This document shows positions 5,540-41,664 of a DNA stretch of 64,000 nt, piece after piece. The notes under the pieces are model-generated. The model made no database searches and was not told the DNA's origin. It saw only the letters and a program-made list of their open reading frames with translations. Made by a program: the position numbers and the translations under genes. Within the stretch, counting starts at the first letter, position 1. The number at the start of each line of letters is the position of its first letter. Location of the stretch: the NCBI RefSeq assembly GCF_055900595.2, contig NZ_CM148325.1; one strand, 5' to 3'.

Positions 5540-7081
<1,542 letters not shown>

Positions 7082-7149
7082 CCTGAAAGAACTGTGCTTT
7101 GCAGTGCTCACACAGATTGTCTGATGAAAATGAGCAGTAAAACCTCTAC

Positions 7150-7226
<77 letters not shown>

Positions 7227-7268
7227 AATTTGCACCGCAAATTTGAAGAGGTTTTAACTACATGTTAT

Positions 7269-7344
7269 GGGGCTATAGCTCAGCTGGGAGAGCGCCTGCT
7301 TTGCACGCAGGAGGTCTGCGGTTCGATCCCGCATAGCTCCACCA
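7269..7344 (+). tRNA. alaU: tRNA-Ala (TGC anticodon)
   Basis: GGGGCTATAGCTCAGCTGGGAGAGCGCCTGCTTTGCACGCAGGAGGTCTGCGGTTCGATCCCGCATAGCTCCACCA in the spacer. Confidence 0.95.
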
Positions 7345-7527
7345 TCTCTGTAGTGATTAAATAAAAAATACTTCAGAGTGTACCTGCAAAGGTTCACTGC
7401 GAAGTTTTGCTCTTTAAAAATCTGGATCAAGCTGAAAATTGAAACACTGAACAACGAAAGTTGTTCGTGAGTCTCTCAAATTTTCGCAACACGATGATGA
7501 ATCTCAAGAAACATCTTCGGGTTGTGA

Positions 7528-10432
<2,905 letters not shown>

Positions 10433-10525
10433 ACAACGCCGAAGGTGTTTTGGCGGATTGAGAGAAGATTTTCAGCCTGATACAGATTAAATCAGAACGC
10501 AGATGCGGTCTGATGAAACAGAATT

Positions 10526-10645
10526 TGCCTGGCGGCCTTAGCGCGGTGGTCCCACCTGACCCCATGCCGAACTCAGAAGTGAAACGCCGTAGCGCCGATG
10601 GTAGTGTGGGGTCTCCCCATGCGAGAGTAGGGAACTGCCAGGCAT
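10526..10645 (+). rRNA. rrfD: 5S ribosomal RNA (first copy)
   Basis: TGCCTGGCGGCCTTAGCGCGGTGG...GGAACTGCCAGGCAT; 120 nt. Confidence 0.97.
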
Positions 10646-10796
10646 CAAATTACGAAGAATGGCACTGACCTTTGAGGCAGTTCACTACTCGATAAGAGAG
10701 TAGGACAAAAGCGAAAGCTTTTGAACGTTGCGAAGCAACGGCCCGAAGGGTGAATCGCGAAGTGATTCATAAACTGCCAGGCATCAAATTAAGCGT

Positions 10797-10872
10797 GCTG
10801 ATATGGCTCAGTTGGTAGAGCGCACCCTTGGTAAGGGTGAGGTCCCCAGTTCGACTCTGGGTATCAGCACCA
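10797..10872 (+). tRNA. thrV: tRNA-Thr (GGT anticodon)
   Basis: GCTGATATGGCTCAGTTGGTAGAGCGCACCCTTGGTAAGGGTGAGGTCCCCAGTTCGACTCTGGGTATCAGCACCA between the two 5S genes. Confidence 0.95.
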
Positions 10873-10909
10873 CTTTTTAGGTTAAAGTTCGGCAGATTAG
10901 AAAAGAATT

Positions 10910-11029
10910 TGTCTGGCGGCAGTAGCGCGGTGGTCCCACCTGACCCCATGCCGAACTCAGAAGTGAAACGCCGTAGCGCCGATGGTAGTGTGGGGTCTCC
11001 CCATGCGAGAGTAGGGAACTGCCAGACAT
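10910..11029 (+). rRNA. rrfF: 5S ribosomal RNA (second, distal copy)
   Basis: TGTCTGGCGGCAGTAGCGCGGTGG...GGAACTGCCAGACAT; 120 nt; differs from the first copy by paired changes in helix I. Confidence 0.95.
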
Positions 11030-27169: not shown

Positions 27170-28180
27170 TCAGTGCTGCCGCAAAAAGTCTTCAATGTCA
27201 GTCAGTGAGGATACCCCTTCCATCGGACCTTGTCGCATTACGGCGAGCGCGCCGCTGGCATTTGCATATTGCAGCGCCTTGTGTGCCGGGATACCGGATA
27301 AGAAAAGAGTGACAAACGTTGCGCCAAAGCAGTCGCCTGCACCCGTTGGATCGATTATTTCGATATCGTGGCCTGCAACATGCTGGGCGTGTAATGTTCC
27401 GTTTTTAAGCTTGTAATAGCTGGCCCCACGCTGGGCGCGTTTTATCGCCACATGTTTTACGCCGCCGTGGAGAAGATCGCTAACAATCTGTTCTTCTGAC
27501 AGATTTTTGTGACGCGCGAAGAAAGGGAGTTCGCTTTCGCTGGGGATAAAAATATCCGTATATTCAATCAAATAATCGAGAGCCTGCGCCATTTCAGGAA
27601 TACTCAGCATCTCTTTGCGAATATTGGGATCGAAAGAAACGGTGCCGCCAGCCGATTTGATCGTCGTTATTGCTTTACGCATGACATCGATCATGCGAAA
27701 TGAGAACAATGATGAGCCCACAATATGCAGATGGTTACACTGTTTTAGCAGATCCTTATCAATGTGCTCGGCAGTAAACAAACCGCAGGCGCTGTTAGGG
27801 ATATTAAAGACGAAATCCCGCTGCTGGGGATTTTGATAACTCACGAATGCCGTACCTGTTACGGCATTGTTCATAACATGGATCCCATCGGTAATGACAC
27901 CTTCATGACGGAGGCGCTCTATAATGAGTCGGCCAAAATCATCATTACCAACACATCCGAAGAAGATGGCCCGATGGGACAGTTTTGCCACCTGAGCAGC
28001 AAAAATTGCTGGTGCACCGCTGGGAAATGGCCCGATAAACTCCCCAGGCTGAGTGAATTTTTGATGTGGGTTGCGGGACAAAAACTCGGCCAGCAATTCG
28101 CCCATAGCGCAGATAGTTATTGTCACAAAACCCCTCTCATTCCTGAAGCCTTTCGCGATTGGACCAGGTAAAGCACTCAT
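27170..28180 (-). CDS. PfkB-family carbohydrate kinase (island kinase A)
   Basis: 336-aa ORF; PfkB signature DPTGAGDCFG and the GG dipeptide region; paralogous to 33661-34623; true start may lie at an internal GTG or ATG 18-25 codons downstream (alignment with the paralog starts near TITICAMGELL). Confidence 0.85.
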   Translation of the reverse strand: MSALPGPIAKGFRNERGFVTITICAMGELLAEFLSRNPHQKFTQPGEFIGPFPSGAPAIFAAQVAKLSHRAIFFGCVGNDDFGRLIIERLRHEGVITDGIHVMNNAVTGTAFVSYQNPQQRDFVFNIPNSACGLFTAEHIDKDLLKQCNHLHIVGSSLFSFRMIDVMRKAITTIKSAGGTVSFDPNIRKEMLSIPEMAQALDYLIEYTDIFIPSESELPFFARHKNLSEEQIVSDLLHGGVKHVAIKRAQRGASYYKLKNGTLHAQHVAGHDIEIIDPTGAGDCFGATFVTLFLSGIPAHKALQYANASGALAVMRQGPMEGVSSLTDIEDFLRQH

Positions 28181-28967
28181 TACTGGTATAAAGGATAACG
28201 AAATCAGCCGACTGCAATTGTTGCTGATATTGTTCGTTAATGCTGCGGCTGACGATCACATTTTCTGCCTGATGCAAATGTCCAATGGCAGCCGTTGATG
28301 GCGCAGGATCGGCGGCAACGATAACTGTCTTATTCTGGGCATGATCGAAACAGAGCTGCCAGGCAGCGGCAAGTCTGGGAACGTTGATATTTAAAGTACC
28401 ATCAGCATCCAGATGGCTGATTTCCAGAATGCTGTGTGTAATGGTGAAATGCTGAAGTGCCTGTTCGAGCGGTTTTCCGGCCAGTGCGGTGTCGGGGCGC
28501 AGCATTTCACTGCCAGCCAGTATTATTTCGCCATCAATAAACTGATTTGCCAGCAGCGCATGTTCGGGATCGTTGGTGATCAGACGCAGTTTTTTCACTT
28601 CGCTGAGCAATGGAATGATCTTACGGCAGATTGTCCCATGTCCAAGAAATAGCGTGTCACGATCGCGAATTAACCGTGCGCAATGTCGTGCTATTTCCAT
28701 TTGTTGTGCCAGAGACAATGGCGCGATCGGTTGTATCGCTTCTGGTTCAGAGGAGAGGGGGGTCGCAATAGCACCGCCAAATGATCGCTTTAAATATCCC
28801 TGTTGCTCCAGATAACTGAGATCGCCGCGGATCGTCACGCCAGAGACACCAAGTTGCGCAGATAAGTCATCAACTTTGATTTCACCCTGGGCGGCAACAA
28901 TTTCTGCAATTTTTAATCTGCGTTTCAGTAGGTTAGACGATTTTCTCGGCACGTTAACACTCTTCAT
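28137..28967 (-). CDS. DeoR-family transcriptional regulator
   Basis: 276 aa; N-terminal DeoR-type winged HTH (RRLKIAEIVAAQGEIKVDDLSAQLGVSGVTIRGDLSYLEQQGYL), C-terminal sugar-phosphate-binding-like domain; upstream of kinase A and divergent from the aldolase-transporter operon. Confidence 0.85.
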   Translation of the reverse strand: MKSVNVPRKSSNLLKRRLKIAEIVAAQGEIKVDDLSAQLGVSGVTIRGDLSYLEQQGYLKRSFGGAIATPLSSEPEAIQPIAPLSLAQQMEIARHCARLIRDRDTLFLGHGTICRKIIPLLSEVKKLRLITNDPEHALLANQFIDGEIILAGSEMLRPDTALAGKPLEQALQHFTITHSILEISHLDADGTLNINVPRLAAAWQLCFDHAQNKTVIVAADPAPSTAAIGHLHQAENVIVSRSINEQYQQQLQSADFVILYTSNECFTWSNRERLQE

Positions 28968-29281
28968 TGGCCTTTAATGCGTAACACTATAGCCCCTTGT
29001 ATTTTTCTTTGAAAGTTATCCTTCAATAATATCGACAATTCGAAAAGGAAATCATGGGCCAGAAATCGCAACGAAAATAGCTTAATGCATTGAAAAATAG
29101 ATGAATTAATTCATATTTATGCAGAGGTGTTATTGGTTTCACTTGCAAAGTGAAAAACAAATTAAGTTATTTTTTGTAAGTTATTTTGATGATATTCGAC
29201 ATGTATCACGCTTTTTACCGCTTTTGCTGTGCTAGTTTGCTTTCAAAATGAAAGTGAAGATTCTCTTTCTTCATTTTGTAA

Positions 29282-30163
<882 letters not shown>

Positions 30164-30198
30164 GACGTTGTACCCTACAAAAACAATGAGGATTGTTT

Positions 30199-31089
30199 AT
30201 GAAAAATATTAAATTACTTGGTTCCGCTATGATGGTGAGCCTGGCATTGTTCTCGCAAAGTTCATTGGCAAAAGAGTATAAAATTGGAGCTTCATTATTA
30301 ACACAGCAACACCCTTTTTATATCGACCTCGCAAATGCAATGAAAGAAGAGGCGAAAAAAGACAATGTCAATTTAAGTGTCTCTATTGCCAATCAGGATT
30401 TAAACAAACAGCTTTCTGATGTTGAGGATTTTATTACTAAAAAGGTAGATGCCATTATTATCTCTCCGGTCGATTCGAAAGGTGTCCAGGCAGCGATAAT
30501 TAAAGCCGATAAGGCTGGTATTCCCGTTATCACCGTTGACGTTGCCGCGGAAGGCGTTCCGGTCGTATCGCATGTTGCGACCGATAATTACGCGGGTGGC
30601 GTTGAAGCTGGTAAGTTAATGGGCAAACTTTTGAATGGTAAAGGTACTGTAGCCATTATTTCTTATCCTGCACTACAATCGGTGGTTGCACGCGTTGATG
30701 GCTTTAAGAAAGGATTAAGCGATACGCCGGATATTAAAATTGTTGCTGAACAGCCGGGTATAACGCGGGCTGAAGCGTTAACGACTGCGCAAAACATTAT
30801 GCAGGCCAACGCCAACCTGAATGGTCTGTTTGGCTTTGGTGATGATGCGGCGCTGGCGGCGGTTATAGCGGCGAAATCTGCGCATAACGACAACATCAAA
30901 ATCATTGGTTTTGATGGTATGAAAGAAGCGCGAGATGCCGTTGATAGTGAAAAAACGTTTGCGGCCGTGATTCGGCAATATCCCGATCAAATGGGTGCTA
31001 AAGCCATTGATGCCGCTGTTGATCACCTCAATGGTAAACCGGTAGAGAAAATGATCCCGGTACAACCCGGCGTTTATACAGGTAAATAA
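30199..31089 (+). CDS. periplasmic sugar-binding protein of ABC transporter (RbsB-like)
   Basis: ATG at 30199 with GAGGA Shine-Dalgarno; signal peptide MKNIKLLGSAMMVSLALFSQSSLA then KEYKIGAS...; the track ORF starts 2 codons upstream at an alternative codon. Confidence 0.85.
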   Translation: MKNIKLLGSAMMVSLALFSQSSLAKEYKIGASLLTQQHPFYIDLANAMKEEAKKDNVNLSVSIANQDLNKQLSDVEDFITKKVDAIIISPVDSKGVQAAIIKADKAGIPVITVDVAAEGVPVVSHVATDNYAGGVEAGKLMGKLLNGKGTVAIISYPALQSVVARVDGFKKGLSDTPDIKIVAEQPGITRAEALTTAQNIMQANANLNGLFGFGDDAALAAVIAAKSAHNDNIKIIGFDGMKEARDAVDSEKTFAAVIRQYPDQMGAKAIDAAVDHLNGKPVEKMIPVQPGVYTGK

Positions 31090-31104
31090 TAAACATCTTC
31101 ATTT

Positions 31105-31135
31105 CACAACAAAACGTTATCGACGTTTTGTTGTG
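31105..31135 (+). other. intercistronic stem-loop between binding-protein and ATPase genes
   Basis: 13-bp perfect inverted repeat CACAACAAAACGT / ACGTTTTGTTGTG with a 5-nt loop, read directly. Confidence 0.7.
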
Positions 31136-31149
31136 ACACCGAGGTCATT

Positions 31150-32649
31150 ATGACGGATGTTATTCTTGATGTTTCGCATATTGCGAAGACATTTGGTCAT
31201 GTTCAGGCATTAAAAGATATTACACTCTCTTTACGTAAAGGGCGGGTACATACTTTATTAGGTGAGAATGGTGCCGGTAAATCGACATTAATGAAAATAT
31301 TGGCCGGTGTTTATCCGCCAACCCAGGGAACAATAAAACTACGTGGTGAAACTATCACAATTAATAATCCGCAGCATTCACGTCAGTTAGGGATTGCTAT
31401 TATTTTTCAGGAACTGAGCCTGAGTAATAATATGACAGTGGCGGAAAATATTTATGCCAATAATGAACCGCGACGTTTTGGCATTATTAACGATAAAAAA
31501 ATGCTCGCAGATTGCCAGAATCTCCTCGCGGAACTGGGCATCCCACTGGATCCGCTGGAAATGGTCGGCAATATGTCGATGGCACATAGGCAACTGGTAG
31601 AAATTGCCAAAGCCTTAAGCTATGCAGCAGATGTCGTGATTATGGATGAACCGACATCTTCGCTAAGTGATAATGAAGCAGAGATTCTGTTTAACATTAT
31701 TGAGAAATTAAAGCAGCGAGGTTGTGCGGTTATTTATATCTCTCATCGCATGGATGAAATTATGCGGATTTCAGATGATATTTCGGTGATCCGCGACGGT
31801 GAGTATATCGCTACGCATGAAAAGAAAAACAGTGATATCCAGCATTTGATTGCCCAAATGGTTGGTCGGGAAATGAAAAATATTTGGCCAGCACGTCTTG
31901 GGGAAAAGCCGGATGAAAATGTTCCTGCAAAACTGGAAGTAAAAAACCTTTCCCATCCTTCGCTTTTTAAAGAGGTCAGTTTCGCTGTGCGTCCGGGGGA
32001 AGTCCTCGGATTTTTTGGCCTGGTGGGGGCCGGGCGTTCCGATGTGATGAAGGCGCTATTTGGCCTCGTTTCGTATCACGGGACTGTGTTGATTGATGGT
32101 AAGGAAGTCAGGATCGCTAATCCCAAACAGGCTATTGATCATGGCATTGCTTTTGTGACCGAAAACCGCAAGGAAGAAGGGTTAGTGCTGATGCACGACG
32201 TCAATATGAACACGCACCATGTGGCGTTTCAATATAACGCTTCGCGGATGGGACTCATCAATCACCGACAAGAAGAGGCGAAGACGCTGCAATCTATTGC
32301 CAGAATGAACACTAAAGTGAGTTCTGTACATCAGGCAGTGGGAGCGCTGAGCGGCGGTAATCAACAGAAAATCGTGTTATCCAAGTGGCTGGAGAAAACT
32401 CCGCGTATTTTATTGCTCGATGAGCCAACGCGCGGAGTGGATGTCGGCGCAAAATTTGAAATCTATAACGTGATACGTCAACTGGCTGCGGCAGGGACAG
32501 CAATTATTCTGGTGTCCTCTGAACTGCCAGAGGTCATGGCACTTAGCGATCGTCTGGTGGTAATGCGTAATAAAACGATTGCCGATATTTATTCATGTGA
32601 AAATTTAACGCAGACACAGGTAATGACCGCTGCAACAGGAGTACGTTAA
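31150..32649 (+). CDS. sugar ABC transporter ATP-binding protein with tandem ABC domains (CUT2 type, RbsA-like)
   Basis: 499 aa; Walker A GENGAGKST (N-domain) and GLVGAGRS (C-domain), signature LSGGNQQK, Walker B LLLDEPTRGVD. Confidence 0.9.
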   Translation: MTDVILDVSHIAKTFGHVQALKDITLSLRKGRVHTLLGENGAGKSTLMKILAGVYPPTQGTIKLRGETITINNPQHSRQLGIAIIFQELSLSNNMTVAENIYANNEPRRFGIINDKKMLADCQNLLAELGIPLDPLEMVGNMSMAHRQLVEIAKALSYAADVVIMDEPTSSLSDNEAEILFNIIEKLKQRGCAVIYISHRMDEIMRISDDISVIRDGEYIATHEKKNSDIQHLIAQMVGREMKNIWPARLGEKPDENVPAKLEVKNLSHPSLFKEVSFAVRPGEVLGFFGLVGAGRSDVMKALFGLVSYHGTVLIDGKEVRIANPKQAIDHGIAFVTENRKEEGLVLMHDVNMNTHHVAFQYNASRMGLINHRQEEAKTLQSIARMNTKVSSVHQAVGALSGGNQQKIVLSKWLEKTPRILLLDEPTRGVDVGAKFEIYNVIRQLAAAGTAIILVSSELPEVMALSDRLVVMRNKTIADIYSCENLTQTQVMTAATGVR

Positions 32650-33639
32650 ATGACAGAGAAAACTCTTGCCAGTCCGAAACCTTCGGAAATTCCCATTGCA
32701 AATAATTTTAAAAAAGTCTTCAGGCAATATGGCGGTATCCTCAGTGGAATGGTGGTGTTAATCATTCTGTTCAGTCTTATTAATGACAGTTTTTTTACTG
32801 CCAATAACATTACTAATATTATTCTTCAGGTTTCGATAATTGCAATTACCGCCTATGGAATGACTTATGTACTTTTGCTTGGCGATATTGATTTATCAGT
32901 CGGTTCAACCATTGCATTGATTGGCACATTTGCTGCGCTTGGGGCTTCATGGGGAATTCCATTTATTTTATTGGTCCCATTATCCATTATTGCAGCCCTG
33001 GCTCTGGGGATGATAAATGGTGGCTTGACGGCTATAGCGGGTATCCCTTCGTTTATTGTCACCGTTGCTACAATGGGGATCTTCCGTGGTATCGCTTATA
33101 TAGTGACCGATGGTATGCCCATCATGATTAAAGATGATGCCTTTCTGGCGCTGGGGAATGGAGAATTTCTCTATATACCTATTCCTATCTGGATATTAAT
33201 CATCTTATTGCTGATTAACCACTTCATTCTTACTAAAACAACCTTTGGACGAAAAATTTATATCACTGGTGGTAATAAAGAAGCGGCAGTTTATTCAGGG
33301 ATAAATGTCACCCGCTTGAAAATTAAAGTCTTTATGATTACTGCAGTGCTGGCAGGTATCAGCGGGATGATCCTCGCCTCACGCCTCTATTCCGGGCAAC
33401 CGAATTCCGCGTTGAGCTACGAACTGGATGCTATTGCCGCGGCTGTACTGGGAGGCACCAGCCTGAACGGCGGCTATGGAACGGTGGTGGGGACGGTAAT
33501 CGGGGCATTAACCATCGGCGTTATTAATAATGGCATGAACTTAATGAACGTTCCCTATTTCTATCAGATGGTGGTTAAAGGATTAGTCATTCTTGTAGCC
33601 GTTTATTTTGACGTAAGAAATAAAAGAAAACGTAGCTAA
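32650..33639 (+). CDS. sugar ABC transporter permease (RbsC-like)
   Basis: 329-aa hydrophobic multi-pass protein; the ATG directly abuts the ATPase stop (TAAATG). Confidence 0.88.
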   Translation: MTEKTLASPKPSEIPIANNFKKVFRQYGGILSGMVVLIILFSLINDSFFTANNITNIILQVSIIAITAYGMTYVLLLGDIDLSVGSTIALIGTFAALGASWGIPFILLVPLSIIAALALGMINGGLTAIAGIPSFIVTVATMGIFRGIAYIVTDGMPIMIKDDAFLALGNGEFLYIPIPIWILIILLLINHFILTKTTFGRKIYITGGNKEAAVYSGINVTRLKIKVFMITAVLAGISGMILASRLYSGQPNSALSYELDAIAAAVLGGTSLNGGYGTVVGTVIGALTIGVINNGMNLMNVPYFYQMVVKGLVILVAVYFDVRNKRKRS

Positions 33640-33660
33640 TCATTTCAAGGAATTAATTAT

Positions 33661-34623
33661 ATGAGTAAGGTCTTCACAATTGGAGAAATTCTGGTTGAAA
33701 TTATGGCGAGTAAAATCGGCCAGCCATTTGATCAACCAGGTATCTGGAACGGCCCTTATCCCAGTGGTGCGCCCGCTATTTTTATCGACCAGGTGACACG
33801 TCTTGGTGTTCCGTGCGGCATCATTAGCTGTGTGGGGAATGATGGCTTTGGTGATATTAATATACATCGTCTGGCTGCTGATGGTGTGGATATCAGGGGG
33901 ATTTCAGTCTTACCTCTGGAAGCCACCGGGAGTGCCTTTGTTACTTATCATAACTCTGGCGATCGCGATTTTATTTTTAATATCAAGAATGCCGCTTGCG
34001 GTAAATTATCGGCGCAGCATGTTGATGAAAATATACTGAAAGACTGTACCCATTTTCATATTATGGGCTCATCCCTGTTTTCATTTCATATGGTAGACGC
34101 AGTAAAAAAAGCAGTAACCATCGTTAAAGCAAATGGTGGCGTTATTTCTTTCGACCCGAATATTCGTAAAGAGATGCTCGATATTCCAGAAATGCGTGAC
34201 GCCCTCCACTTTGTTCTTGAGTTAACAGATATCTATATGCCCAGCGAGGGAGAAGTGTTGCTCTTGTCGCCACACTCGACACCGGAGCGTGCAATCGCTG
34301 GTTTTCTTGAAGAAGGTGTTAAAGAGGTGATTGTGAAGCGCGGCAATCAAGGTGCCAGTTACTACTCCGCGAATGAGCAGTTTCATGTTGAGAGCTATCC
34401 GGTGGAAGAAGTTGACCCGACCGGTGCGGGAGACTGCTTTGGTGGCGCGTGGATTGCCTGCCGCCAGCTAGGGTTTGACGCCCATCGGGCATTACAATAT
34501 GCCAACGCCTGCGGTGCACTGGCGGTAACCCGACGTGGCCCAATGGAGGGAACGTCTCGCCTTGCGGAAATCGAAGCGTTCATCCAGCGCCATGACATGT
34601 CCATTCGGGAAGCAGCACAATGA
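33661..34623 (+). CDS. PfkB-family carbohydrate kinase (island kinase B)
   Basis: 320 aa; DPTGAGDCFG signature; shares long identical stretches with kinase A (PYPSGAPAIF, GSSLFSF, SFDPNIRKEML, ALQYANA, GPMEG). Confidence 0.9.
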   Translation: MSKVFTIGEILVEIMASKIGQPFDQPGIWNGPYPSGAPAIFIDQVTRLGVPCGIISCVGNDGFGDINIHRLAADGVDIRGISVLPLEATGSAFVTYHNSGDRDFIFNIKNAACGKLSAQHVDENILKDCTHFHIMGSSLFSFHMVDAVKKAVTIVKANGGVISFDPNIRKEMLDIPEMRDALHFVLELTDIYMPSEGEVLLLSPHSTPERAIAGFLEEGVKEVIVKRGNQGASYYSANEQFHVESYPVEEVDPTGAGDCFGGAWIACRQLGFDAHRALQYANACGALAVTRRGPMEGTSRLAEIEAFIQRHDMSIREAAQ

Positions 34624-35666
34624 AAAACGAAATTTGGTCGTGGATTGGCGATCTCTCGCAGGTTGCCGGAATTAAACACTATGAGTTACGCAGTGGCAGA
34701 TCAAAGGGGACAGAAGCGTTTGATGTCCGTACTGGTGCGGGATTGGCATTTACGGTGGTAAAAGATCGCGCGCTGGATATTGCATGGGCCAGCTACAAGG
34801 ACACTGCGCTCTCTTTTATCACCCCCAACGGCATTGTCGCCCCCGCTTTTTTTGAGTCTCAGGGCAACGGGTTTTTACGTAGCTTCTACGCGGGGTTACT
34901 GACTACCTGCGGACTTAGCTACATTGGCACGCCCTGTGAGGATAACGGAGAAACGCTGGGGTTACACGGGCGTTTGGCTGCGACTCCAGCAGAAGAGGTG
35001 GGGTATCGCACAGAACGGACCGACGACGGCATTGAATTTGTCATCAATGGCAAAGTACGGGAAACACGATTGTTCGGTGAAAATCTGACGCTGGAAAGGA
35101 CCATTCGCTGCCGTTATGGCGAAAATGTGCTGCGCATTGAAGACAAGGTGACTAATCATGGTTTCACCCGCCAGCCGCTGCAAATTCTTTATCACTTTAA
35201 TTACGGCTGGCCTTTATTATCGCCACAGGCAGAAATCTTGCTGTCGGCTAAAAGCGTAACGCCACGAACCCCGCATGCGGCGGAAGGGTTAACCAGTCAT
35301 CTGGAGATTTGTACCCCACAGCCCAGTTTTGACGAGCAGGTTTACTATCTCACGTTGAATAGCGACAGTCAGGGGATGAGTAAAGTTGCGCTGGTGAACG
35401 CCGAACTGGGGTGGGGAATTTACGAGAAATTCGACACCATGCAGCTACCCAACTTTATCCAGTGGAAAAATTTAGGCGCGGGTGAATATGTTATGGGGCT
35501 GGAGGTCAGCAATAGTTTTCCTGACGGTCGTGATAAAGAACGAGCGCAGGGGCGTCTGCCCTTTATAGAGCCAGGGGAAACAAAGACATACTGCTTTGAG
35601 CTGGGAATTGTTGATGGCGATGCTGAAATTAGCGCGTTGAAAGCGGAAATTGCAAGCTACCGTTAG
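34620..35666 (+). CDS. conserved protein of unknown function; possibly an aldose-epimerase-like fold (DUF4432-type), not verified
   Basis: 348-aa ORF whose ATG overlaps the kinase B stop (ATGA); no recognisable catalytic motif by eye; the family assignment is a guess from memory. Confidence 0.6.
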   Translation: MKNEIWSWIGDLSQVAGIKHYELRSGRSKGTEAFDVRTGAGLAFTVVKDRALDIAWASYKDTALSFITPNGIVAPAFFESQGNGFLRSFYAGLLTTCGLSYIGTPCEDNGETLGLHGRLAATPAEEVGYRTERTDDGIEFVINGKVRETRLFGENLTLERTIRCRYGENVLRIEDKVTNHGFTRQPLQILYHFNYGWPLLSPQAEILLSAKSVTPRTPHAAEGLTSHLEICTPQPSFDEQVYYLTLNSDSQGMSKVALVNAELGWGIYEKFDTMQLPNFIQWKNLGAGEYVMGLEVSNSFPDGRDKERAQGRLPFIEPGETKTYCFELGIVDGDAEISALKAEIASYR

Positions 35667-39572: not shown

Positions 39573-39723
39573 AAGTGGTCCTCATGTGCATGATGGATTG
39601 GAAAATAATTTCTGAAGACTATACTCGCTAATGGAAAAGCAAAGCCGATGAAGCGCAATAAATTGCGAGATAAATCTGATTTGCTAGTATGCCCGCTTCC
39701 TCACTATCGGAGTTAACACAAGG

Positions 39724-41664
39724 ATGAGATTAACGACGAAATTTTCGGCCTTTGTTACGCTGCTCACCGGGTTAACAATTTTTGTGACTTTGTTGGGCTG
39801 TTCGCTAAGTTTCTACAACGCCATTCAGTATAAGTTTAGTCATCGCGTTCAGGCGGTGGCGACGGCGATTGATACCCACCTTGTGTCGAATGACTTCAGC
39901 GCATTAAGGCCACAAATTACCGAATTAATGATGTCAGCAGATATCGTTCGTGTAGACCTGCTACATGGTGATAAACAGGTTTATACCCTCGCCAGAAATG
40001 GTAGTTATCGTCCGGTTGGCACCAGCGATCTGTTTCGCGAACTGAGCGTTCCGTTGATAAAGCATCCGGGGATGTCGCTGCGTCTGGTTTATCAGGATCC
40101 GATGGGCAACTATTTCCATTCGTTGATGACCACCGCGCCGCTCACGGGGGCGATTGGCTTTATCATTCTTATGCTCTTCCTGGCGGTACGCTGGTTACAA
40201 CGGCAACTTGCCGGGCAAGAATTGCTGGAAACCCGGGCTACTCGTATCTTAAACGGTGAGCGTGGCTCTAATGTGTTGGGAACCATCTATGAATGGCCGC
40301 CCAGAACCAGCAGTGCGCTGGATACGCTGCTTCGTGAAATTCAGAACGCACGCGAACAACACAGCCGTCTTGATACGCTGATCCGCTCTTATGCCGCCCA
40401 GGACATGAAAACCGGCCTCAATAACCGACTCTTCTTCGATAATCAGTTGGCAACGTTACTGGAAGATCAGGAGAAAGTAGGTACCCACGGGATCGTGATG
40501 ATGATTCGTCTACCGGATTTCAATATGTTGAGCGATACCTGGGGGCACAGCCAGGTTGAAGAACAGTTCTTCACTCTGACGAATCTGCTGTCGACATTTA
40601 TGATGCGCTACCCTGGCGCACTGCTGGCGCGTTACCACCGCAGTGATTTTGCTGCGCTGTTGCCGCACCGGACGTTAAAAGAGGCTGAGAGCATAGCCAG
40701 TCAGTTAATCAAAGCCGTCGATACCTTGCCGAACAATAAAATGCTCGATCGCGACGATATGATCCACATTGGTATCTGTGCCTGGCGTAGTGGTCAGGAT
40801 ACCGAGCAGGTAATGGAACATGCAGAGTCTGCCACGCGTAATGCGGGATTGCAGGGCGGCAATAGCTGGGCTATTTACGATGACTCGTTGCCTGAAAAAG
40901 GACGCGGTAATGTTCGCTGGCGTACGCTTATCGAGCAAATGCTCAGTCGCGGCGGCCCGCGCCTTTATCAAAAACCGGCGGTTACTCGCGAAGGTCAGGT
41001 TCATCATCGAGAACTCATGTGCCGCATCTTCGATGGTAATGAAGAGGTTAGCTCGGCGGAGTATATGCCGATGGTCTTGCAGTTTGGCTTATCGGAAGAG
41101 TATGACCGCCTGCAAATCAGCCGTCTGATTCCACTATTGCGTTACTGGCCGGAGGAAAATCTGGCGATTCAGGTTACCGTTGAGTCGCTGATTCGCCCGC
41201 GTTTTCAGCGTTGGCTGCGCGATACGTTAATGCAATGTGAAAGATCGCAACGAAAACGCATAATTATTGAACTTGCAGAGGCCGATGTAGGTCAACATAT
41301 CAGTCGTTTACAACCTGTTATTCGTTTAGTGAATGCTTTAGGGGTACGGGTAGCCGTCAACCAGGCTGGTTTGACGCTGGTAAGCACCAGTTGGATCAAA
41401 GAACTTAATGTTGAGTTACTCAAGCTCCATCCGGGGCTGGTCAGAAACATTGAGAAGCGAACGGAGAATCAGCTGCTGGTTCAAAGCCTGGTGGAAGCCT
41501 GCTCCGGGACCAGCACCCAGGTTTACGCCACCGGCGTGCGTTCGCGAAGCGAGTGGCAGACCCTGATTCAGCGCGGTGTTACAGGTGGGCAAGGGGATTT
41601 TTTCGCGTCCTCACAGCCACTTGATACTAACGTGAAAAAATATTCACAAAGATACTCGGTTTAA
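39724..41664 (+). CDS. csrD: CsrD, regulator of CsrB/CsrC sRNA decay (degenerate GGDEF-EAL protein)
   Basis: 646 aa; N-terminal TM segments, HRSDF in place of GGDEF and ELM in place of EAL. Confidence 0.93.
   Translation: MRLTTKFSAFVTLLTGLTIFVTLLGCSLSFYNAIQYKFSHRVQAVATAIDTHLVSNDFSALRPQITELMMSADIVRVDLLHGDKQVYTLARNGSYRPVGTSDLFRELSVPLIKHPGMSLRLVYQDPMGNYFHSLMTTAPLTGAIGFIILMLFLAVRWLQRQLAGQELLETRATRILNGERGSNVLGTIYEWPPRTSSALDTLLREIQNAREQHSRLDTLIRSYAAQDMKTGLNNRLFFDNQLATLLEDQEKVGTHGIVMMIRLPDFNMLSDTWGHSQVEEQFFTLTNLLSTFMMRYPGALLARYHRSDFAALLPHRTLKEAESIASQLIKAVDTLPNNKMLDRDDMIHIGICAWRSGQDTEQVMEHAESATRNAGLQGGNSWAIYDDSLPEKGRGNVRWRTLIEQMLSRGGPRLYQKPAVTREGQVHHRELMCRIFDGNEEVSSAEYMPMVLQFGLSEEYDRLQISRLIPLLRYWPEENLAIQVTVESLIRPRFQRWLRDTLMQCERSQRKRIIIELAEADVGQHISRLQPVIRLVNALGVRVAVNQAGLTLVSTSWIKELNVELLKLHPGLVRNIEKRTENQLLVQSLVEACSGTSTQVYATGVRSRSEWQTLIQRGVTGGQGDFFASSQPLDTNVKKYSQRYSV

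What the first reader, a model, noticed from the sequence alone, without database searches (positions are those of the whole stretch)
39724..41664. CsrD carries visibly degenerate GGDEF and EAL signatures
Where active diguanylate cyclases have GGDEF the protein reads HRSDF, and where phosphodiesterases have EAL it reads ELM. This fits the established view that CsrD is not a c-di-GMP enzyme but an RNA-decay specificity factor for CsrB and CsrC.
Basis: partly seen in the sequence, partly recalled or inferred. Interest (0 to 1): 0.2.

Follow-up and report, generated by a model that had tools for sequence, protein, structure and literature searches.

The report
E. coli csrD, catalytically dead GGDEF-EAL
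This is the ordinary Escherichia coli csrD gene, whose two c-di-GMP enzyme-like domains have lost their catalytic residues and which is already known to help RNase E degrade the regulatory RNAs CsrB and CsrC.

Summary
Window 39724-41664 (+) is an intact 646-aa ORF. It scores 976.7 bits against NCBI's CsrD equivalog model (cutoff 663), is 640/646 identical to E. coli K-12 CsrD, and sits in the K-12 context acuI | csrD-mreBCD-yhdE-rng.

HRSDF (aa 305-309) aligns under the GGDEF/GGEEF of the active cyclases DosC, DgcZ and MorA. ELM (aa 430-432) aligns under the EAL of DosP and MorA. No intact GGDEF or EAL motif occurs elsewhere in the protein.

One refinement. The GGDEF site is badly degraded: four of five motif residues are changed, and the metal, guanine and phosphate ligands and the I-site are lost. 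The tripeptide ELM is only mildly degenerate. The catalytic Glu and the Arg of ExLxR are kept, and the active E. coli phosphodiesterase PdeH reads ELL. EAL inactivity is really shown by losses elsewhere: the Asn is absent, DDFGTG reads NQAGLT, K-x-D reads K-L-H, and EGVE reads TGVR.

Published pull-downs show that K-12 CsrD does not bind c-di-GMP, and that Leu-to-Met at this position abolishes binding in Erwinia CsrD.

Verdict: already known, low interest.

The parts
39724..41664 (+). csrD coding sequence (646 aa plus stop)
   Evidence: ORF. NCBIfam CsrD equivalog at 976.7 bits. 640/646 identical to K-12 CsrD. Annotated csrD in the listed E. coli genomes.
39739..39816 (+). predicted transmembrane segment 1 (about aa 6-31)
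   Evidence: Kyte-Doolittle 19-aa windows above 1.6 starting at aa 6-13. Boundaries are approximate.
39823..40113 (+). periplasmic GAPES4 sensor domain (aa 34-130)
   Evidence: Pfam PF17157, E 2.4e-36. It is the most variable part among Enterobacteriaceae orthologs, with mean column entropy 0.93 bits.
40120..40200 (+). predicted transmembrane segment 2 (about aa 133-159)
   Evidence: Kyte-Doolittle windows above 1.6 starting at aa 133-141. Boundaries are approximate.
40393..40863 (+). degenerate GGDEF domain (aa 224-380)
   Evidence: Pfam PF00990, E 3.2e-33, profile positions 1-160/161. Aligned with DosC and DgcZ.
40636..40650 (+). HRSDF, the A-site pentapeptide in place of GG(D/E)EF (aa 305-309)
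   Evidence: Found in 115 of 117 Enterobacteriaceae sequences, the query included.
40930..41607 (+). degenerate EAL domain (aa 403-628), the published EIIA-Glc binding domain
   Evidence: Pfam PF00563, E 5.8e-38, profile positions 4-234/236. EIIA-Glc binding to the EAL domain is taken from PMC5027483.
41011..41025 (+). ELMCR in place of E-x-L-x-R (aa 430-434). Glu and Arg are kept and Leu is replaced by Met432.
   Evidence: Found in 113 of 117 sequences, with ELLCR in the other 4.
41359..41385 (+). NQAGLTLVS in place of the DDFG(T/A)GYSS metal-binding / loop 6 motif (aa 546-554)
   Evidence: Aligned with DDFGTGFSG of DosP and DDFGMGYAG of PdeK.

Best explanation
The ORF is the E. coli csrD gene. 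It encodes an inner-membrane protein with the order TM, periplasmic GAPES4 domain, TM, linker, GGDEF domain, EAL domain. Both cytoplasmic domains keep their fold-level sequence signatures but have lost the residues needed to make or break c-di-GMP.

Shown here: identity, domain architecture, and a residue-by-residue account of which catalytic positions are lost.

Taken from the literature on the 99%-identical K-12 protein: CsrD neither synthesizes, hydrolyzes nor binds c-di-GMP. It is required for RNase E-initiated decay of the CsrA-sequestering sRNAs CsrB and CsrC. It is activated when unphosphorylated EIIA-Glc binds its EAL domain. [quoted passage not shown]

Inferred: this allele behaves the same way, because its six substitutions (V60A, S100T, V149L, V228M, G326S, K507R) avoid every motif position. 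How CsrD exposes the RNA to RNase E remains unsolved in the literature.
For: Identity. NF008281 CsrD equivalog at 976.7 bits against a cutoff of 663. 640/646 identical to K-12 with no gaps. Present once in 5425 of 5426 complete E. coli genomes. Flanked by acuI and mreBCD-yhdE-rng as in K-12.

GGDEF domain, with PleD numbering taken from my own knowledge and mapped through the DosC/DgcZ alignment:
- G368 G369 E370 E371 F372 correspond to H305 R306 S307 D308 F309.
- The Mg ligand D327 is R262.
- The guanine-binding N335 is S270, and D344 is E279.
- The phosphate-binding K442 is G375 and R446 is G379.
- No RxxD lies at the I-site position. The only two RxxD motifs in the protein are at aa 262 and 434.

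EAL domain:
- Kept: E430, R434, E516, E519, K567, Q623.
- Lost: the Asn of the (S/A)VN(L/V)S motif, since QVTVESL at 483-489 contains no Asn.
- Lost: DD of DDFGTG, which reads N546 Q547.
- Lost: the Asp of K-x-D, which is H569.
- Lost: both Glu of EGVE, which are T603 and R606.

Conservation. HRSDF occurs in 115/117 and ELMCR in 113/117 Enterobacteriaceae sequences of about 78-98% identity, the query included. Six more distant representatives that still pass the CsrD equivalog cutoff read FRRDL/VVI, YHSDF/EIS, FHSNF/QII, FDGDF/EMF, FDSTF/EIF and YDADF/EMF. None is catalytic-type.

The two 'dead' domains are more conserved than the periplasmic sensor: mean column entropy is 0.31 and 0.27 bits against 0.93. 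This fits a retained non-enzymatic function.

Literature: PMC5027483, PMC9276943, PMC12910134.
Against: Nothing found here contradicts it. The caveats are these:
- No biochemistry exists for this exact allele.
- The primary papers (Suzuki 2006, Leng 2016) are not in the held library, so their results are cited second-hand through.
- The alignment around the missing EAL Asn is ambiguous. Different aligners put E487, S488 or a gap under it. No Asn is available in that stretch under any of them.
- The EAL domain keeps six of the eleven or so canonical residues, and the closest solved structure is the c-di-GMP receptor LapD. Sequence alone would therefore not exclude nucleotide binding.
Confidence: 0.95

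Rival explanations
1. CsrD here is a c-di-GMP receptor. The inactive EAL domain still binds c-di-GMP, as in LapD, FimX and Erwinia amylovora CsrD, and the ligand modulates CsrB decay.
For: The best solved-structure match is the c-di-GMP receptor LapD (E 8.9e-33), and the LapD equivalog is the second NCBIfam hit (168 bits, far below its 1020 cutoff). E430, R434, E516, E519, K567 and Q623 are retained. E. amylovora CsrD (FRSDF / EIL) binds c-di-GMP with a Kd of about 4 uM through its EAL motif (PMC9276943).
Against: The same paper reports no detectable c-di-GMP binding by E. coli K-12 CsrD, and shows that L435M alone abolishes binding in the Erwinia protein. The window protein has that Met (M432), and its EAL domain differs from K-12 only by K507R. 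PMC5027483 states that CsrD does not appear to mediate a response to c-di-GMP.
Confidence: 0.04
2. The protein keeps a cryptic enzymatic activity, either diguanylate cyclase or phosphodiesterase, despite non-canonical motifs.
For: Both domains are full length with strong Pfam scores. The tripeptide ELM differs by one residue from the ELL of the active PdeH. The EAL Glu, the ExxE pair, the Lys and the Gln are retained.
Against: On the cyclase side, both Gly and the metal-binding Glu of GGEEF, the D327-equivalent Mg ligand, the guanine-binding Asn, and both phosphate-binding Lys/Arg are replaced. On the phosphodiesterase side, the metal-binding Asn, both Asp of DDFGTG, and both Glu of EGVE (one the proposed general base, from my own knowledge) are replaced. 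The literature reports no synthesis or hydrolysis.
Confidence: 0.01
3. The EAL-equivalent position was misread. The true counterpart of EAL would be E446-Y-M ('SSAEYMPM'), as the default MAFFT alignment places it.
For: The default MAFFT alignment puts E446 in an invariant column under the Glu of ELL, EAL and EVL in PdeH, DosP and PdeK.
Against: That alignment needs a 7-column and a 19-column gap. Five independent HMMER alignments agree on E430-L-M: LapD, FimX and MorA, and DosP and the 3-sequence HMM. They also align LYQKPAV with the (Y)QP motif, and SAEYMPMVLQFGL with the downstream PSEFIPVLEEIGL segment of MorA. Under either alignment the tripeptide is not EAL.
Confidence: 0.01

Closest known systems
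E. coli K-12 CsrD (YhdA, b3252), RNase E specificity factor for CsrB/CsrC
   Same: Same length and 640/646 identical. HRSDF, ELMCR and every other motif position examined are identical. Same neighbours, acuI and mreB.
   Different: Six substitutions (V60A, S100T, V149L, V228M, G326S, K507R), none at a catalytic-equivalent position. The DNA falls in the allele group that 218 of 5425 genomes share at 99% or more, while the rest are 95-99%.
Erwinia amylovora CsrD (FRSDF / EIL)
   Same: Orthologous architecture of GAPES4, GGDEF and EAL. It is also enzymatically inactive and also acts on CsrB with RNase E.
   Different: The Erwinia protein keeps the canonical ExLxR Leu and binds c-di-GMP with a Kd of about 4 uM. 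The window protein has Met at that position, and this change abolishes binding.
LapD (Pseudomonas fluorescens; PDB 3pjw/3pjx), a degenerate GGDEF-EAL c-di-GMP receptor
   Same: Closest solved structure (E 8.9e-33 over aa 211-632). It is a membrane protein with a periplasmic domain and degenerate GGDEF (RGGEF) and EAL (KVL) motifs at the same aligned positions.
   Different: It scores 168 bits against a 1020-bit cutoff for the LapD equivalog, so it is not a LapD. The periplasmic domain differs (GAPES4). LapD binds c-di-GMP and controls the protease LapG, whereas CsrD acts on sRNA decay.
Active E. coli enzymes DosC and DgcZ (cyclases) and PdeH, DosP and PdeK (phosphodiesterases)
   Same: Homologous domains that can be aligned end to end.
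   Different: 19-24% identity. The catalytic residues listed under Best explanation are replaced in CsrD.

Membership tests
CsrD (NCBIfam NF008281, RNase E specificity factor) | Full-length match to the equivalog model above its curated cutoff | tested here: met
   976.7 bits against a cutoff of 663, covering aa 2-633 over profile positions 1-632/633.
CsrD (NCBIfam NF008281, RNase E specificity factor) | Architecture TM, GAPES4, TM, GGDEF, EAL | tested here: met
   Pfam GAPES4 34-130, GGDEF 224-380 and EAL 403-628. Two hydrophobic segments at about aa 6-31 and 133-159.
CsrD (NCBIfam NF008281, RNase E specificity factor) | Orthologous chromosomal position next to mreBCD | tested here: met
   The order acuI | csrD, mreB, mreC, mreD, yhdE, rng matches K-12 and EC42405.
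CsrD (NCBIfam NF008281, RNase E specificity factor) | Required for RNase E-dependent CsrB/CsrC turnover and activated by EIIA-Glc | not testable with these tools
   Known for the 99%-identical K-12 protein (PMC5027483). Inferred for this allele.
Active diguanylate cyclases (GGDEF domain) | GG(D/E)EF A-site motif | tested here: not met
   HRSDF lies under GGDEF of DosC and GGEEF of DgcZ. No such motif occurs elsewhere in the protein.
Active diguanylate cyclases (GGDEF domain) | Mg2+ ligand Asp (PleD D327), guanine-binding Asn/Asp (N335/D344) and phosphate-binding Lys/Arg (K442/R446) | tested here: not met
   These positions are R262, S270, E279, G375 and G379 in the alignment. PleD numbering is from my own knowledge.
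Active EAL phosphodiesterases | E-x-L-x-R motif | tested here: inconclusive
   ELMCR keeps Glu and Arg but replaces Leu with Met. The active PdeH reads ELL. Leu-to-Met abolishes c-di-GMP binding in Erwinia CsrD.
Active EAL phosphodiesterases | Metal-binding Asn, the DDFG(T/A)GYSS loop 6 motif, the Asp of K-x-D, and both Glu of EGVE | tested here: not met
   QVTVESL has no Asn. The other motifs read NQAGLTLVS, K567-L-H569 and T603-G-V-R606.
Degenerate EAL c-di-GMP receptors (LapD / FimX type) | Binds c-di-GMP through the EAL domain | not testable with these tools
   LapD equivalog at 168 bits against a 1020 cutoff. A published pull-down with K-12 CsrD was negative (PMC9276943).

The most novel reading that the evidence does not exclude
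HRSDF and ELMCR are almost invariant across Enterobacteriaceae, while other members of the CsrD family carry different pentapeptides and tripeptides. Both 'dead' domains are also better conserved than the periplasmic sensor. One reading of this is that the former active-site pockets have been repurposed as a lineage-specific binding surface. The partner could be a ligand other than c-di-GMP (another nucleotide, or an RNA 3' segment) or a protein such as EIIA-Glc, RNase E or DgcT. That would supply the missing mechanistic step in CsrD-dependent CsrB decay.
Probability: 0.15. Interest if true: 0.5.

Novelty: already known. Interest (0 to 1): 0.07.

Why it matters
It matters little as a discovery. 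It confirms a textbook example of GGDEF-EAL domains repurposed for a non-enzymatic role, in a gene that nearly every E. coli carries.

The useful by-product is a caution for motif-reading scans. The EAL tripeptide alone is a poor activity predictor: the active PdeH reads ELL and the inactive CsrD reads ELM. Activity calls should use the full set of metal-binding and loop 6 residues.

The single Leu/Met position also separates c-di-GMP-binding from non-binding CsrD orthologs in published experiments. A few Citrobacter CsrD proteins carry the Leu form.

Tried and rejected
- The default MAFFT alignment of the EAL domains placed E446 ('AEYM') under the EAL Glu. I rejected this after five HMMER alignments agreed on E430-L-M.
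- Suzuki et al. 2006 (PMC1578682) and Leng et al. 2016 (PMC4888959) are not in the held library. Their conclusions are cited second-hand.
- Two Python calls failed because loci L003-L005 were not copied to /data. I used the align_proteins tool on DNA references instead.
- The search for homologous proteins listed only relatives at about 78% identity or more. More distant family members came from the 50%-cluster representative search.
- The promoter and terminator consensus scan around csrD found no more sites than shuffled sequence gives: 3 against 3.7 expected promoters, and 2 against 2.8 terminators. I draw no conclusion from it.
- I did not run a structure prediction or fold search. The sequence alignments and the published biochemistry already settle the question.

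Full report
**What is there.** Window 39724-41664 (+) is a single intact ORF of 646 codons plus stop.
- Pfam finds three full-length domains: GAPES4 (aa 34-130, E 2.4e-36), GGDEF (aa 224-380, E 3.2e-33, profile 1-160/161) and EAL (aa 403-628, E 5.8e-38, profile 4-234/236).
- Hydropathy shows two hydrophobic segments, at about aa 6-31 and 133-159, that bracket the GAPES4 domain.
- NCBI's equivalog model for 'RNase E specificity factor CsrD' (NF008281) matches end to end at 976.7 bits against a curated cutoff of 663. Every other model falls far below its own cutoff, including LapD at 168 against 1020.
- The DNA is present in 5425 of 5426 complete E. coli genomes and is annotated csrD in the rows listed.
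- The protein is 640/646 identical to K-12 CsrD (b3252) with no gaps. The substitutions are V60A, S100T, V149L, V228M, G326S and K507R.
- The neighbours are those of K-12: acuI divergently upstream, then mreB, mreC, mreD, yhdE, rng and yhdP downstream.
- Rfam and the annotation of the closest genome place the window in the rrnD-to-yhdP region of an E. coli chromosome.

**The GGDEF observation.** HRSDF is at aa 305-309 (nt 40636-40650). In the alignment with the active E. coli cyclases it sits in the same columns as RYGGDEF of DosC and RYGGEEF of DgcZ. HMMER aligns it with GGDEF of the active MorA and RGGEF of LapD.

The degeneracy goes well beyond the pentapeptide. PleD numbering below is from my own knowledge, mapped through DosC and DgcZ.

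| PleD residue | Role | CsrD |
|---|---|---|
| D327 | Mg2+ ligand | R262 |
| N335 | guanine binding | S270 |
| D344 | guanine binding | E279 |
| K442 | phosphate binding | G375 |
| R446 | phosphate binding | G379 |

There is no RxxD at the I-site position. The only RxxD motifs in the protein are at aa 262 and 434. The cyclase site is comprehensively gone.

**The EAL observation.** ELM is at aa 430-432 (nt 41011-41019). Five HMMER alignments put it under the EAL-type tripeptide of each reference: LapD KVL, FimX EVL and MorA EAL, and DosP EAL plus the corresponding position of a three-sequence HMM of PdeH, DosP and PdeK.

The default MAFFT run instead placed E446 under the motif, at the price of 7-column and 19-column gaps. 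I reject that placement. The HMMER alignments also match LYQKPAV to the (Y)QP motif and SAEYMPMVLQFGL to the downstream PSEFIPVLEEIGL segment.

As a signature, ELM is only mildly degenerate. The catalytic Glu (E430) and the Arg (R434) of ExLxR are kept, and the active phosphodiesterase PdeH reads ELL at this position. The real evidence for inactivity lies elsewhere in the domain:
- The metal-binding Asn is missing, since QVTVESL at 483-489 contains no Asn.
- DDFGTGxS(G/S) reads N546-Q-A-G-L-T-L-V-S.
- K-I-D reads K567-L-H569.
- EGVE reads T603-G-V-R606.
- E516, E519, K567 and Q623 are retained.

The second ELM, at aa 67-69, is periplasmic and coincidental.

**Relatives.** Among 117 aligned Enterobacteriaceae sequences, the query plus 116 full-length clusters of about 78-98% identity, HRSDF occurs in 115 and ELMCR in 113. 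The four exceptions at the EAL position, Citrobacter tructae and allies, read ELLCR.

The two 'dead' domains are more conserved than the periplasmic GAPES4 domain. Mean column entropy is 0.31 and 0.27 bits against 0.93. That argues for a retained, non-enzymatic function rather than decay.

Among 50%-identity cluster representatives, six more distant proteins (30-49% identity) still pass the CsrD equivalog cutoff. They carry FRRDL/VVI, YHSDF/EIS, FHSNF/QII, FDGDF/EMF, FDSTF/EIF and YDADF/EMF at the two sites. None of the 110 nearest full-length representatives has GG(D/E)EF at the A-site. Degeneracy is therefore shared across the whole neighbourhood sampled, which suggests it is ancestral to the CsrD / LapD-like group, and the exact residues are fixed lineage by lineage.

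**Mechanism.** This section rests on the literature for the K-12 protein.
- Vakulskas et al. 2016 (PMC5027483) describe CsrD as a predicted inner-membrane GGDEF-EAL protein. [quoted passage not shown]
- CsrB/C decay needs RNase E and PNPase.
- Unphosphorylated EIIA-Glc binds the EAL domain and activates decay when glucose is being transported.
- How it does so is unknown. RNA binding by CsrD is non-specific in vitro, and CsrD plus EIIA-Glc did not restore cleavage in vitro.
- Kharadi and Sundin 2022 (PMC9276943) show that E. amylovora CsrD (FRSDF / EIL) binds c-di-GMP with a Kd of about 4 uM through the EAL motif. L435M abolishes binding, and E. coli K-12 CsrD does not bind.
- The window protein has that Met (M432), and its EAL domain differs from K-12 only at K507R. 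Absence of c-di-GMP binding is therefore a strong inference.
- A 2026 review (PMC12910134) already describes the HRSDF motif and the variation at the Leu/Met/Phe position.

**Verdict.** The one correction is that the EAL tripeptide alone is weak evidence. The feature is already known, and this is an ordinary allele of a near-universal E. coli gene. Interest is low.

Noticed in passing
window 27170-35666: An eight-ORF sugar-utilisation cluster lies between yhdT/panF and accC. By the annotation of the closest genome it encodes a sugar kinase, a DeoR-type regulator, a tagatose-bisphosphate-type class II aldolase, an ABC transporter (binding protein, ATPase, permease), a second sugar kinase and an aldose 1-epimerase. 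From my own knowledge of K-12 gene order, accC and yhdT are adjacent there; I did not check this here. The epimerase ORF is intact in the window (34620-35666, 348 aa) but is annotated as frameshifted in the closest genome, EC42405.
   Followed up: partly
proteins P0038, P0039, P0041, P0042 (Citrobacter tructae / Citrobacter sp. RHB25-C09 CsrD clusters): These CsrD orthologs read ELLCR instead of ELMCR, so the canonical ExLxR Leu is present. Published work links that Leu to c-di-GMP binding in Erwinia CsrD. They may be c-di-GMP-responsive CsrD variants within Enterobacteriaceae.
   Followed up: no
csrD aa 34-130 compared with aa 224-628 (window 39823-40113 and 40393-41607): Among Enterobacteriaceae orthologs the periplasmic GAPES4 sensor is about three times more variable than the catalytically dead GGDEF and EAL domains. 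Mean column entropy is 0.93 bits against 0.31 and 0.27.
   Followed up: partly
representatives P0123-P0269: None of the 110 nearest full-length 50%-cluster representatives of CsrD has a GG(D/E)EF pentapeptide at the A-site. The whole CsrD / MshH / LapD-like neighbourhood appears to be degenerate at the cyclase site.
   Followed up: partly
window 39700-39726: The csrD start codon is immediately preceded by ACAAGGAUG, and a GGAG lies 13 nt upstream. The A(N)GGA-like motif overlaps the ribosome-binding region. This would fit the published modest repression of csrD by CsrA, but I did not test it.
   Followed up: no
window 5540-11027: A complete rrnD-type ribosomal operon: 16S, tRNA-Ile, tRNA-Ala, 23S, 5S, tRNA-Thr and a second 5S. 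There is also a StyR-44 Rfam match in the 23S leader at 7412-7520.
   Followed up: no
window 39724-41664: The csrD DNA is at least 99% identical in only 218 of 5425 E. coli genomes and 95-99% identical in the rest. The window therefore comes from a minority allele group, with the closest match the bovine strain EC42405 at 99.7%.
   Followed up: no
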